Assembly (NCBI RefSeq): GCF_041886205.1
Contig: NZ_CP169030.1
DNA: 64,000 nt
DNA from: Escherichia coli
Lineage (GTDB): Bacteria > Pseudomonadota > Gammaproteobacteria > Enterobacterales > Enterobacteriaceae
Strand: one strand, 5' to 3'
The position numbers were made by a program. Positions 9,001-12,000 of this stretch are shown in pieces (positions within the stretch are counted from its first letter, which is position 1; every line of letters starts with the position of its first letter).

Positions 9001-12000
9001 TGCCGCATAATGATAATATAAGTAAAGCCCCGAAAATTTTTCGGGGCTTTACTTATATTATCATGACTTCCACTCCCTGAACTGTTCGGCAATCATCCAT
9101 AATGCTTTGTTGATTCGGATATCACCATCAATACCCGTAATGGCTCTTGTCCTGGTATTTTTACCGGAGGCACTTCGCCCCGACAGTCCACCTTTTATCA
9201 TATTCTCCTGAACCCGCTGCCAGGTTGTCCAGAGATCGTTCTGTTTATCCTCCCAACGACGGGGAGTAATTATTTGTTCAGGCGTCACTGGTGTTTTATT
9301 TTCATCTTCATACCTGACCATCAATGCAGCTCTGCCAAATAAATGTTGCTCGTCACTGTTAAGATGTATTTCTTTCATCGCCTCCATATTATCAGTAACC
9401 TTATCAAAGACACCGAGCACTTCATACGCACCCTCGATAACCTGCCCGACAATATCACCTTTATGTGGAACGCGGATTTCGCCAAAATTATTTCCGCACA
9501 CCAGACCATTTGTGCAGACAAAACGAAAAATTCCGGGGATCATCTGATAACTGGATGAACCATCATGTGAATTAAGCAGGATAATTTCAGGAACTTCTTT
9601 CCCGTTAATATTCCCTTCCCTGCGAAGACGTAACATATGTTTACTGTATTCGCGGCGTCCCAAATCGCGAACCCGACTCTGACAGGCAAAGAACGGCTGG
9701 AAACCTTCATCACGTAACTTATTGATGATATTAATGGTTGGAATATATGTATAACGCTCACTCCGGGATTCATGTTTATCACCGGAAAAGACAGACGGCA
9801 CAAACTGCATTAATTCATCATCCGTTAAAGGACGCTCACGGCGAATGGAATTATACCGACCAAAACGGGAAGCTAATCGCATAACAGTAACTCCTTTATG
9901 AAGGTATAAAATTAATAAAAATTTTTTCGCGTAATATCATCCTCCCTCGGTTATCATTAACAATAAGATAACAATTCCGAGGGAAAGGACCATCAAATCA
10001 GGTCAGTTCGGGACTGACCAACCTGCCGGGTGAAAAGCAGTAACAGCGCGATCAGCTCATCAGCGTTTTTTCTGACAAGAGGGGTATGATTCTCCAGGCT
10101 ATCCAGTAAGTCATGCAGCTCATTATTGACCTGGTGGAGCACCTTAAAAAGCGCCCCTGAATCCTGGTTGCTCTGATAGGCGAGACTGGCCTTAACAGCG
10201 TTATTCTGCATGATCCCGATTTGTGCGATTGCGTCTTTCTGCTGATCGCCTGTTGGCTGATAAGTGGTGTTAAAAGAAAATGCGCTCATGTTTCATTCTC
10301 CTGTGTCTGATGTTTTCAGCCCCCATCATCTGTTGAGTTTCGGGAGCCGCGGTTTTGACGTTTTGCGGGGACCTGCTCTTTGCTCCCTCCGGTATTCACC
10401 ATCACCTGTTTGAGAACCTTCGCCGCATGGGGCATCACTGCCACGGCCGGAAACGACTGTCCGGGGGCAGACCGCAAAAGTTTTTGCCTGCTTTTGGGCA
10501 AAAAGTTTTGCGGGATGTGCATTTCACCCCTGGACTGGCGGAGACGGTTGTGGCTGTCTATGCCCCCGGCGACAGGGGCTTAAACAGGTGAATCGCACCG
10601 GACAGAACAACGGGCAGGGACCCGCCGCAACGACGTGAAGCGCGGTTTGCGAAACGGCGTTGCTCCTTACATCCCGGCGTCTTTTTGCCGGGATGCCGGG
10701 AGCGCAGGTCACGGCGCGACAAGGGTGGCGCGACCGTTCCGGTCGCTGAAAACCCGGGTTTTTGCGTCAGGGATGGAAGCCGCCAGGGCGGAGACAGCTC
10801 CGCTGGCTCCGTTCACGACAGCCCGCCCCGCCAGGGGGACGCCCGGAAAAGGCACTGCCAGGAGAACAACAAAACAGAGAGTAATCAGAGCAGCAGAAAA
10901 AAGAAGAACAGTAGCAGGAACCGCAACATCATCAGTAACAGACAAATGACAGGTCTGAAAAGACAGAAGCCCACAGCAGAACGTCCGCGTAATGAAAGGG
11001 GCGGCGCGTCAGCGCGGCCTTTTTTACCAGCACTGACACCGTGTGCCAGTGCAGCCTCTGGCGACGCTACAGCGCTGCCAGTTCATTCAGGATATGGGGG
11101 TTTCGCTCAACCATTTTCATCAGCAGGATGGCTTGTTTATTAGGTTTAGCCAGTCCCTGCTCCCAGTTCTGCAGGGTAGTGACGCCGGTATGTAAATACT
11201 GTGCGAAAACAGCCTGTGATAGCTTCAATTTTTCGCGTACCGCTTTCACCTCATCGGGCGTCATAGTGACGGGTTTTGCGCTGACCTTGTGTGTTCTCAA
11301 AGTTTTTTTGCCAGCATTAAACTCTCCCCACGCAGCCATGCCTTCCTGCAATTCGCTAAAAATATCACGATCTTTCATCAACGCCCCCTTCGTCTGGCCT
11401 GTTCAAGCATTTCGCGTAAAATATCGCGCTGTGCTTTCGTCAAATCATCTTTCTGGTCTTTGTCATACAGGGTGAACAACAGAAAGTGGGATTTTTCCAG
11501 ATACCAGTAGTAAATCACTCTGATGCCGCCGCGTTTCCCCTTGTTACGCCTTGCATCCCCAAACCGTACCTTGCGCAATCCCCCGGTATGCTGGATAACA
11601 TCACCGCATAACGGATTTTTCAGCAACATCTGCTGAAACTCCCGAAACTCATCATCCGTGAAATATTCAGCACGATGCCGCTCGAACGGCGGCAACTCGA
11701 CAAATAGTGCTTCCATAACACCTCACAAAATCCCCTTTACTTGGGGATATTATACCCCCCAACATGGGGACTCTTCAATTGAGTTCAGACAAAACCTCCT
11801 GCTTTAGCAAGCGTTTCATAGTGCCCAATCAGAAGTTCCAGCCCATCCGCTTTTTTTTGAAAACGGCTGTATGTGAAACCATCGCATCGATCAGTGCATC
11901 AAGCTCTGCGCGGAGCTCCAGTATCCTGGTTGTAAACGTATTTTTGCCCTGGCTGGTCATCCAGTTTAAATATGCCTGTACCGCGCGTTCCTGCATGATT

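What the first reader, a model, noticed from the sequence alone, without database searches (positions are those of the whole stretch)
11067..11716. Toxin-first RelE/HigB-like and HTH antitoxin pair inside the leading region
A 112-aa RelE/ParE-superfamily-like ORF overlaps by 4 nt a downstream 104-aa XRE-HTH ORF, the HigBA-type order. Together with hok/mok (13698-13914) and ccdAB (32924-33449) this gives the replicon three addiction or abortive modules. A toxin-antitoxin pair in the early-transferred segment could also act as an anti-defence or establishment function.
Basis: partly seen in the sequence, partly recalled or inferred. Interest (0 to 1): 0.4.

Follow-up and report, generated by a model that had tools for sequence, protein, structure and literature searches.

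The report
HigB2/HigA2 toxin-antitoxin pair in plasmid leading region

Summary
On the minus strand, a 112-aa ORF (11716→11378) is followed by a 103-aa ORF (11378→11067). The second ORF is 104 aa only if the unlikely TTG start is used.

Both ORFs align over their full length to the crystallised V. cholerae HigB-2 (E 1.6e-27, 49% identity) and HigA-2 (E 3e-24, 42%). All four HigB-2 active-site residues are conserved. An AlphaFold model (pLDDT 90) superposes on HigB-2 (TM 0.85).

The pair has its own TTGAAG-N18-TATAAT promoter, with a CCCCA-N3-TGGGG palindrome where VcHigA2 binds its operator. dN/dS is 0.02–0.16.

The F nic site lies at 8164/8165 on the + strand. The pair therefore sits 2.9–3.6 kb into the leading region and is read from the transferred strand. 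It lies between two copies of the Frpo1 single-strand promoter element.

The identical proteins are already in NCBI. All 15 contexts read for this toxin and for a close cluster-mate were F-type leading regions.

hok/sok and ccdAB are confirmed.

Toxin-antitoxin (TA) enrichment in leading regions, including higB-higA, was published in 2024. The anti-defence idea is untested and not new.

Verdict: an ordinary new member of a known kind, of low interest.

The parts
11378..11716 (-). higB-2-like toxin gene, 112 aa, ATG start, TGA stop
   Evidence: ORF. Full-length match to VcHigB-2 structures at E 1.6e-27 and 49% identity. Active-site residues R51, R66, Y84 and K86 are conserved. AF2 pLDDT 90.4; Foldseek top hits are HigB-2 with TM 0.85 and rmsd 1.4 Å.
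11067..11378 (-). higA-2-like antitoxin gene, 103 aa from the ATG at 11378 (104 aa if the TTG at 11381 is used). N-terminal toxin-binding segment plus C-terminal XRE helix-turn-helix.
   Evidence: ORF. Full-length match to VcHigA-2 at E 3.2e-24 and 42% identity. Pfam HTH_3, and only the HTH part of MqsA_antitoxin. No cysteines, so no MqsA zinc domain.
11749..11778 (-). sigma-70 promoter of the pair: TTGAAG (11778-11773), 18-nt spacer, TATAAT (11754-11749)
   Evidence: Matches 10 of 12 consensus positions. Conserved in all related cassettes, which have a 17-nt spacer.
11754..11772 (-). Candidate HigA operator O1: AGTCCCCA-TGT-TGGGGGGT (core CCCCA-TGT-TGGGG, 11757-11769), filling the promoter spacer and touching the -10
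   Evidence: Read. It is a perfect 8-3-8 palindrome, TATCCCCA-TGT-TGGGGATA, in L003 and L008. It is symmetrically altered to ATACCCAA-C-TTGGGTAT in Serratia. It occupies the same position as the footprinted VcHigA2 operator. Binding was not tested.
11731..11747 (-). Possible second site TCCCC-AAGTAAA-GGGGA between the -10 and the ribosome-binding site; weaker palindrome
   Evidence: Read. The sequence is conserved across cassettes, but the symmetry is imperfect in relatives.
11012..11792 (.). The ~780-bp higBA cassette as a unit of horizontal exchange
   Evidence: Shared at 94-97% identity with K. aerogenes, S. enterica and E. coli plasmids, while the flanking leading-region DNA is <77% identical or unalignable.
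11030..11052 (.). 10-bp inverted repeat just downstream of the higA stop; not followed by a T run
   Evidence: No canonical terminator was found after higA.
10297..11027 (.). Frpo1-like repeat, copy A, immediately downstream of higA and upstream of orf98/DUF932
   Evidence: Repeat families D1-D4. 91.7% identical to F plasmid 63406-64036, the region upstream of ygeA.
12805..13430 (.). Frpo1-like repeat, copy B, about 1.1 kb upstream of higB in the direction of transcription
   Evidence: Lies within a block collinear with F at 94%. As single-stranded + strand DNA it folds into a ~300-nt hairpin with z = -9.15.
11829..12799 (-). Three small co-oriented ORFs between Frpo copy B and higB: orf89 (12799→12530), orf110 (12475→12143) and orf81 (12074→11829)
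   Evidence: No Pfam, PADLOC or PHROG family. orf89 corresponds to the 5' part of F ygeA. orf81 is a 39%-identical paralogue of orf98 at 9993-10289.
8156..8172 (+). F-type oriT nic sequence GTGGGGTGT|GGTGCTTT. It defines the + strand as the transferred strand and places higBA 2.9-3.6 kb into the leading region.
   Evidence: Exact match on the + strand. The nic sequence itself is recalled from knowledge of F oriT.
   Evidence: Pfam HOK_GEF 74.8 bits; Rfam sok 92.6 bits.
   Evidence: Pfam CcdA 93.8 bits and CcdB 111.7 bits.

Best explanation
The locus is an intact, self-regulated type II toxin-antitoxin cassette of the HigB-2/HigA-2 kind.

Shown by sequence and modelling:
- The toxin has the HigB-2/RelE fold and the four residues needed for VcHigB2 activity.
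- The antitoxin has the VcHigA-2 layout: an N-terminal toxin-binding segment and a C-terminal XRE-HTH dimer domain.
- The genes are toxin-first and translationally coupled through a TGATG overlap.
- A near-consensus sigma-70 promoter carries a palindrome in its spacer.
- Both genes are under strong purifying selection.

Inferred by homology to VcHigBA2:
- Free HigB enters the ribosomal A site and cleaves translated mRNA, which arrests growth.
- HigA's N-terminal segment folds onto HigB with very high affinity and blocks it.
- The HigA dimer binds the palindrome and represses the operon.
- HigA is the less stable partner. A cell that loses the cassette therefore frees HigB and stops growing (post-segregational arrest).

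Inferred from anatomy:
- The cassette lies between two ~90%-identical direct Frpo1 repeats. Its loss by repeat recombination would be penalised in the same way. This parallels the role proposed for flm/hok between Frpo1 and Frpo2 in F.
- The cassette is co-oriented with the leading genes, which are read from the transferred strand. It lies 1.1 kb downstream of an Frpo1 copy. It may therefore also be transcribed early from single-stranded DNA, but it does not depend on that.
For: - **Homology:** full-length matches to solved HigB-2 and HigA-2, at 49% and 42% identity.
- **Active site:** R51, R66, Y84 and K86 are invariant in 27 homologues. They correspond to VcHigB2 R51, R64, Y82 and K84, whose alanine variants lose activity (PMC5416850).
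- **Fold:** AF2 pLDDT 90.4. The top 11 Foldseek PDB hits are all HigB-2, followed by RelE-family toxins.
- **Promoter:** TTGAAG-N18-TATAAT.
- **Operator:** the palindrome sits between the -35 and -10, as the footprinted Vc operator does. It is conserved, and it changes symmetrically in Serratia together with a change at the residue equivalent to base-contacting Arg68.
- **Selection:** dN/dS is 0.02-0.16 for higB and 0.04-0.11 for higA.
- **Toxicity cost:** in one relative (L006) the toxin carries a stop at the catalytic Arg66 codon while the antitoxin stays intact. This is what toxicity would be expected to produce.
- **Prevalence:** the exact proteins occur on 224 and 84 public contigs.
- **Context:** nic site and orientation; three Frpo-like repeats; the published flm safeguard proposal (PMC9849209).
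Against: - Nothing was tested experimentally for this cassette. Toxicity, neutralisation, operator binding and antitoxin lability all rest on homology.
- The toxin scores below Pfam's gathering threshold for PF06296 (21.8 vs 27 bits) and has no NCBIfam match.
- In the window the operator has one extra G compared with its relatives. This weakens the palindrome (6 of 8 arm positions) and lengthens the spacer to 18 nt.
- The plasmid already carries hok/sok, ccdAB and sop partition genes, so the added stability may be small.
- In at least one published case, a functional plasmid higBA did not measurably stabilise its native plasmid (PMC5906591; that is a differently related 'HigBA2').
Confidence: 0.8

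Rival explanations
1. Establishment or 'establish-or-die' module. The main selected role is in the first minutes after transfer. The Frpo1 copy B hairpin on the incoming single strand drives a burst of HigB and HigA before the complementary strand is made. If host restriction, CRISPR or other defence then destroys the plasmid, HigA decays and HigB arrests the recipient, so defended recipients gain nothing. Alternatively, HigA neutralises a host toxin.
For: - The cassette lies 2.9-3.6 kb from nic, with the transferred strand as template.
- It sits 1.1 kb downstream of a 94%-identical F Frpo1 homologue that folds strongly as ssDNA. Only one weak 5-bp hairpin lies in between.
- In F, Frpo2 drives genes several kb downstream.
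- The ≥95% clade of the cassette is tightly tied to this position. That holds for 10 of 10 contexts read for the exact toxin, for 5 of 5 contexts read for a Salmonella toxin of the same 90% cluster, and for L001, L002 and L007. The surrounding leading-region DNA in these records is divergent.
- TA genes are statistically enriched in leading regions, and this mechanism has been proposed for them.
Against: - The cassette has its own conventional double-strand promoter and operator, so it needs no Frpo.
- More distant copies sit next to parAB (L003, L008), among metabolic genes (L006) or on chromosomes, so the family is not leading-region specific.
- PADLOC gives no defence or anti-defence match.
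- The authors of the hypothesis note that no anti-plasmid TA defence has been reported.
- The positional bias could simply reflect clonal spread of one plasmid lineage plus repeat-mediated module exchange.
Confidence: 0.2
2. Host-benefit defence module. The pair acts mainly as an abortive-infection or phage-defence system, or as an inter-plasmid competition system carried as plasmid cargo.
For: Homologous pairs occur in phage genomes (PHROG 5869 and 2104, E 5e-32 and 7e-26). The literature discusses TA systems as anti-phage or anti-MGE systems.
Against: There is no PADLOC family match for the toxin, and only marginal HTH hits for the antitoxin. No phage-sensing component lies next to the pair. 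No experimental report for this family was found in the searches run.
Confidence: 0.08
3. Inactive remnant. The pair is a decaying hitch-hiker with no current activity.
For: The window's promoter/operator has a G-run insertion relative to its relatives. One relative, L006, does have a pseudogenised toxin.
Against: Both ORFs are full length, with all catalytic residues present. dN/dS is far below 1. The promoter hexamers are intact. Identical proteins are present on hundreds of contigs.
Confidence: 0.04

Closest known systems
Vibrio cholerae HigB-2/HigA-2 (superintegron; PDB 5JA8, 5JAA, 5J9I, 8A0X)
   Same: - Toxin fold and all four active-site residues.
- Toxin-first order.
- Antitoxin length and two-part layout.
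- Conserved N-terminal RD.F.EL and GK.TL.TH motifs.
- Operator palindrome of about 19 bp between the -35 and -10.
   Different: - Only 49% and 42% identity.
- The operator sequence is CCCCA-N3-TGGGG rather than TGTACGC-N5-GCGTACA.
- Three of the four base-contacting residues differ (R68→T, E71→Q, R77→L; N72 is kept).
- It is carried in a conjugative-plasmid leading region rather than in a chromosomal integron.
E. coli RelE/RelB
   Same: RelE fold and the same active-site arrangement as HigB-2. By inference, ribosome-dependent mRNA cleavage.
   Different: Sequence identity is about 7-16% and TM is about 0.5. The gene order is antitoxin-first. RelB is not an XRE-HTH protein.
Rts1 (Proteus vulgaris) HigB/HigA, the family prototype
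   Same: Plasmid-borne, toxin-first order, XRE-HTH antitoxin.
   Different: No sequence match at E ≤ 1 in the PDB search. PMC5416850 reports a different structure and a different neutralisation mechanism.
MqsR/MqsA (the name RefSeq gives the antitoxin)
   Same: The C-terminal HTH domain of the antitoxin resembles that of MqsA (E 3e-8). The gene order is toxin-first.
   Different: There is no N-terminal zinc-binding domain; the protein has no cysteine. TIGR03830 scores 53.5 bits against a cut-off of 61.8. The toxin is not MqsR-like.
flm/hok-sok of the F leading region, and TA genes of leading-region 'anti-defence islands' (Samuel et al. 2024)
   Same: An addiction module lying between Frpo repeats in the first-transferred segment and read from the transferred strand.
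   Different: hok/sok is a type I RNA-regulated membrane toxin. The published higB-higA example is in a Salmonella element, and I could not check whether it is this same cassette.

Membership tests
HigB-2/HigA-2 (VcHigBA2-type) type II TA | Toxin with the HigB-2/RelE fold | tested here: met
   phmmer against PDB gives E 1.6e-27 over the full length. AF2 pLDDT 90.4. Foldseek TM 0.85 and rmsd 1.4 Å to 5mje_A.
HigB-2/HigA-2 (VcHigBA2-type) type II TA | Active-site residues Arg51, Arg64, Tyr82 and Lys84 of VcHigB2 | tested here: met
   R51, R66, Y84 and K86 align and are invariant in 27 homologues.
HigB-2/HigA-2 (VcHigBA2-type) type II TA | Toxin gene first, antitoxin immediately downstream | tested here: met
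   TGATG stop/start overlap on the minus strand.
HigB-2/HigA-2 (VcHigBA2-type) type II TA | Antitoxin with an N-terminal toxin-neutralising segment and a C-terminal XRE-HTH dimer domain | tested here: met
   Full-length alignment to VcHigA-2 at E 3.2e-24, with conserved N-terminal motifs and an HTH_3 match. Disorder and folding on binding were not tested.
HigB-2/HigA-2 (VcHigBA2-type) type II TA | Inverted-repeat operator overlapping the promoter | tested here: met
   A palindrome lies in the spacer and reaches the -10. It is conserved, and it changes symmetrically across cassettes. This is sequence evidence only.
HigB-2/HigA-2 (VcHigBA2-type) type II TA | Toxicity by ribosome-dependent mRNA cleavage, neutralised by the antitoxin | not testable with these tools
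   Needs expression and cleavage assays.
Pfam PF06296 (RelE) | Score at or above the gathering threshold (27 bits) | tested here: inconclusive
   21.8 bits, below threshold. VcHigB-2 itself scores only 34.3 bits, and some close homologues carry the precomputed domain. This reflects model sensitivity rather than a missing feature.
MqsA antitoxin (TIGR03830 / PF15731) | N-terminal CxxC...CxxC zinc-binding domain | tested here: not met
   The match covers only profile positions 63-130. The sequence has no cysteine. TIGR03830 scores 53.5 bits against a cut-off of 61.8.
Rts1-type HigB/HigA | Sequence similarity to P. vulgaris HigB | tested here: not met
   Only HigB-2 entries were returned at E ≤ 1.
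Leading-region early genes of F-like plasmids | Within the first-transferred segment, with the transferred strand as template | tested here: met
   nic at 8164/8165 on the + strand. The genes are on the minus strand. The neighbours are DUF932, SLT, traM, hok, psiB and ssb.
Leading-region early genes of F-like plasmids | Downstream of an Frpo single-strand promoter | tested here: met
   Copy B is collinear with the F Frpo1 region at 94% identity, and its ssDNA hairpin has z = -9.15.
Leading-region early genes of F-like plasmids | Expression from ssDNA before complementary-strand synthesis | not testable with these tools
   Needs live-cell or RNA measurements during mating.

The most novel reading that the evidence does not exclude
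The ≥95% clade of this cassette may have become a dedicated leading-region module. It would be transcribed from the upstream Frpo1 hairpin on the incoming single strand, where HigA cannot repress it. That would impose addiction within seconds of entry, so that recipients which destroy the plasmid are arrested. The same cassette would also penalise deletion of the Frpo-flanked cargo module by repeat recombination. If so, this is a compact natural test case of the published but untested 'establish-or-die' idea.
Probability: 0.2. Interest if true: 0.55.

Novelty: new member of a known kind. Interest (0 to 1): 0.2.

Why it matters
The practical consequence is modest. The plasmid carries at least three independent addiction modules (hok/sok, ccdAB and higBA), which helps explain why such F-like plasmids are hard to lose.

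The RefSeq label 'MqsA family antitoxin / toxin' is imprecise. HigA-2/HigB-2 is the better name.

The only wider interest lies in the layout. The cassette is small and has a well-understood structural homologue. It sits between two Frpo1 copies, 3 kb from nic. That makes it a convenient system for testing whether toxin-antitoxin pairs in leading regions are expressed from single-stranded DNA, and whether they punish recipients that reject the plasmid.

Tried and rejected
- **NCBIfam and Pfam naming.** The toxin has no NCBIfam hit and is sub-threshold for Pfam RelE. The antitoxin's best profile names (MqsA, NadS) are sub-threshold or cover the HTH only. I rejected these labels in favour of the direct full-length matches to HigB-2 and HigA-2.
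- **PADLOC.** No defence-system membership.
- **Terminator scans.** No canonical terminator was found between Frpo copy B and higB, or after higA. There is only a weak 5-bp hairpin at 11811-11798. I could not settle whether higBA is part of the Frpo transcript.
- **A. baumannii 'HigBA2' paper.** Its authors report little homology to other RelE systems. I did not treat it as the same family and cite it only as a caution about plasmid stabilisation.
- **Literature search.** A search for higBA plus leading region found nothing specific to this cassette.
- **F plasmid.** F itself lacks the cassette. The window differs from F by a ~2.5-kb insertion at the 3' end of ygeA.
- **Locating the -35/-10 inside the Frpo hairpin by eye.** Abandoned as unreliable.
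- **Full TA survey of the 64-kb window.** Not done.
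Full report
**1. What is there**

Two ORFs lie on the minus strand.
- A 112-aa ORF runs from the ATG at 11716 to a TGA ending at 11378.
- A second ORF runs to 11067.

The ATG one codon later (11378) gives 103 aa and a TGATG stop/start overlap of one base. I take the ATG as the real start for three reasons:
- RefSeq annotates every homologue that way.
- The alignment to the crystallised homologue starts at that Met.
- The AGGGGG ribosome-binding site is 5 nt from the ATG but only 2 nt from the TTG.

**2. Family**

Against all PDB sequences, the toxin matches only V. cholerae HigB-2. The match is full length, at E 1.6e-27 and 49% identity. The antitoxin matches VcHigA-2 over its full length at E 3.2e-24 and 42% identity. 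MqsA's HTH domain is a distant second at E 3e-8.

Hadži et al. (PMC5416850) showed that Arg51, Arg64, Tyr82 and Lys84 of VcHigB2 are needed for activity. The aligned residues here are R51, R66, Y84 and K86. They are invariant across 27 homologues down to 50% identity. The VIYY stretch that corresponds to the 'sliding' β-strand IIYY is also kept.

An AlphaFold2 model built on those homologues has mean pLDDT 90.4. Its 11 best Foldseek hits in the PDB are all HigB-2 chains, the best with TM 0.85 and rmsd 1.4 Å. RelE-family toxins follow.

Profile libraries are less helpful:
- Pfam RelE (PF06296) scores 21.8 bits, below its 27-bit threshold. VcHigB-2 itself reaches only 34.3 bits.
- NCBIfam has nothing for the toxin.
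- The 'MqsA family' label used by RefSeq for the antitoxin rests on the HTH half only. The protein has no cysteine, and hence no MqsA zinc domain. TIGR03830 is below its cut-off.

**3. Regulation**

Immediately upstream on the minus strand is TTGAAG-N18-TATAAT (11778-11749), matching 10 of 12 consensus positions. A GAGGTG ribosome-binding site follows.

The promoter spacer is filled by AGTCCCCA-TGT-TGGGGGGT. Related cassettes show the following:
- The E. coli copies L003 and L008 carry the perfect 8-3-8 palindrome TATCCCCA-TGT-TGGGGATA.
- The close relatives have one G fewer than the window, which gives a 17-nt spacer.
- The Serratia copies carry ATACCCAA-C-TTGGGTAT, a change made symmetrically in both arms.

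In the Serratia antitoxins, the residue equivalent to VcHigA2 Arg68 also differs: K or R instead of T. Arg68 contacts bases in the Vc operator.

The experimentally footprinted Vc operator, TGTACGC-N5-GCGTACA, likewise lies between the -35 and the -10 (PMC11006873). Three of the four base-contacting residues differ here, which is consistent with a different operator sequence.

A second, weaker palindrome, TCCCC-N7-GGGGA, lies between the -10 and the ribosome-binding site. Binding to either site is inferred, not shown.

**4. Selection**

Between the window and diverged copies (dS 0.07-1.8), dN/dS is 0.02-0.16 for higB and 0.04-0.11 for higA.

In the S. proteamaculans copy (L006) the toxin has a stop codon exactly at the catalytic Arg66 position, plus extra replacements. 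The antitoxin there is intact. This is the usual way such modules decay, and it is indirect evidence that the toxin carries a cost.

**5. Context**

The exact F nic sequence GTGGGGTGT|GGTGCTTT, recalled from knowledge of F oriT, occurs once, on the + strand at 8156-8172. traJ-UTR/FinP lie at 7266-7377 and sok at 13854-14025.

The + strand is therefore the transferred strand. Higher coordinates enter the recipient first, and higBA lies 2.9-3.6 kb from nic. Its mRNA is complementary to the transferred strand, as for the other leading genes.

A ~630-730-nt element occurs three times in the window: 10297-11027, 12805-13413 and 18193-18926.
- Copies A and B correspond to the F plasmid region directly upstream of ygeA, which is Frpo1. 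Copy A is 91.7% identical, and copy B lies within a collinear block at 94%.
- Copy C lies collinear with the F region just upstream of ssb, which is Frpo2.
- Copy B, folded as + strand ssDNA, forms a ~300-nt hairpin with z = -9.15.

Compared with F, and with a typical F-like plasmid (L004), the window has an extra 2.5-kb module. The module consists of one Frpo1 copy plus cargo: the F-ygeA-like orf89, orf110, orf81, higB and higA. orf81 is a 39%-identical paralogue of orf98.

**6. Distribution**

At the DNA level the cassette is rare in finished sequences. It is present in 5 of 72,556 PLSDB plasmids and 3 of 5,426 complete E. coli genomes.

The identical proteins are nonetheless already in NCBI, labelled 'toxin' and 'MqsA family antitoxin'. 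They occur on 224 and 84 contigs.
- All 10 contexts read for the exact toxin show the order hok … higB-higA … orf98-DUF932-SLT-traM.
- One contig, GCA_012715495.1 AATCPR010000021.1, is 100% identical to window 5378-17716.
- A Salmonella toxin from the same 90% cluster shows the same placement in 5 of 5 contexts.
- In K. aerogenes and S. enterica plasmids, the 781-bp cassette (11012-11792) is 94-97% identical to the window. The flanking leading-region DNA is below 77% identical or unalignable.

The cassette therefore moves as a unit between divergent leading regions.

More distant copies are found elsewhere:
- 86%-identical copies lie beside parAB on IncFIB/FIC plasmids.
- 81%-identical copies lie on Serratia plasmids.
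- A copy with 76% protein identity is chromosomal, between lrgAB and actP in Pluralibacter.

About 1,700 protein clusters across Proteobacteria are homologous at E < 1e-5. Two PHROG families show that such pairs also occur in phages.

**7. How it most likely works**

By homology, free HigB cleaves mRNA in the ribosomal A site. HigA's N-terminal segment folds onto HigB and blocks it. The HigA dimer represses the promoter through the palindrome.

Loss of the genes lets the antitoxin decay, and the toxin then arrests the cell. On this plasmid, that adds a third addiction function. It should also penalise deletion of the module by recombination between Frpo copies A and B. Couturier et al. proposed the same role for flm between Frpo1 and Frpo2 in F.

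Here each of the two inter-repeat intervals has its own TA module: higBA between copies A and B, and hok/sok between copies B and C. This step is inferred from anatomy only.

**8. The anti-defence or establishment idea**

The geometry allows early, Frpo-driven, unrepressed transcription from the incoming strand. The ≥95% clade is strikingly faithful to this position.

However, several points count against a dedicated establishment role:
- The cassette has its own conventional promoter.
- The wider family is not leading-region specific.
- PADLOC gives nothing.
- The positional bias may simply reflect lineage spread.

The idea is also already in print. Samuel et al. (PMC11541004) report TA genes, including higB-higA, enriched in leading regions and encoded on the T-strand. 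They list 'kill if establishment fails' among three hypotheses, and they note the lack of experimental support. I give this reading about 0.2.

**9. Other claims and verdict**

hok/sok and ccdAB are confirmed. I did not screen the rest of the window for more TA modules.

The locus is a new, uncharacterised member of a structurally and mechanistically well-known family, in a setting that has already been described in general terms. Interest is low.

Noticed in passing
window 10297-11027, 12805-13413, 18193-18926: There are three direct copies of the Frpo single-strand-promoter element, where F and typical F-like plasmids have two. Relative to F, the extra copy plus 1.8 kb of cargo forms a 2.5-kb module inserted at the 3' end of ygeA. 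Each inter-repeat interval contains a TA module: higBA in one and hok/sok in the other.
   Followed up: partly
window 11829-12074 (-) and 9993-10289 (-): orf81, directly upstream of higB, is a 39%-identical paralogue (E 8e-19) of orf98, the small gene that follows Frpo1 in many F-like plasmids. Neither has a Pfam, PADLOC or PHROG family.
   Followed up: partly
window 12143-12475 (-): orf110 has no family match and no megablast match in PLSDB. It is deleted, together with most of orf81, in one otherwise similar assembly (L014).
   Followed up: partly
window 11755-11760: The run of six G in the higBA promoter spacer/operator is five G in the K. aerogenes and E. coli Br_112 copies and four or fewer in the other relatives. 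This makes the spacer 18 nt instead of 17 and weakens the palindrome. It could be a tuning or slippage site.
   Followed up: partly
L006 6313-6651 (S. proteamaculans plasmid NZ_MT039190.1): The toxin homologue carries a stop codon exactly at the catalytic Arg66 position, while the antitoxin is intact. This is an orphan-antitoxin decay state.
   Followed up: yes
L010 and L011, upstream of higB: In two assemblies an IS66-family element and unrelated two-component genes abut higB. They replace the hok-psiAB-ssb part of the leading region, while higBA and the oriT-proximal genes are kept.
   Followed up: no
L020-L024 2235-2759: Salmonella F-type plasmids with the same higBA also carry a yoeB/yefM pair in the leading region, but on the opposite strand. 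It is therefore not readable from the transferred strand.
   Followed up: no
window 43114-43191 (+) and 21240-21339 (+): Rfam reports a group II intron catalytic domain (57 bits) and the antisense RNA AS-pc01 (99 bits) elsewhere in the window.
   Followed up: no
window 5378-17716: This stretch is 100% identical over 12,339 bp to NCBI assembly GCA_012715495.1, contig AATCPR010000021.1 (81.7 kb). The window probably comes from that plasmid or an identical one.
   Followed up: partly
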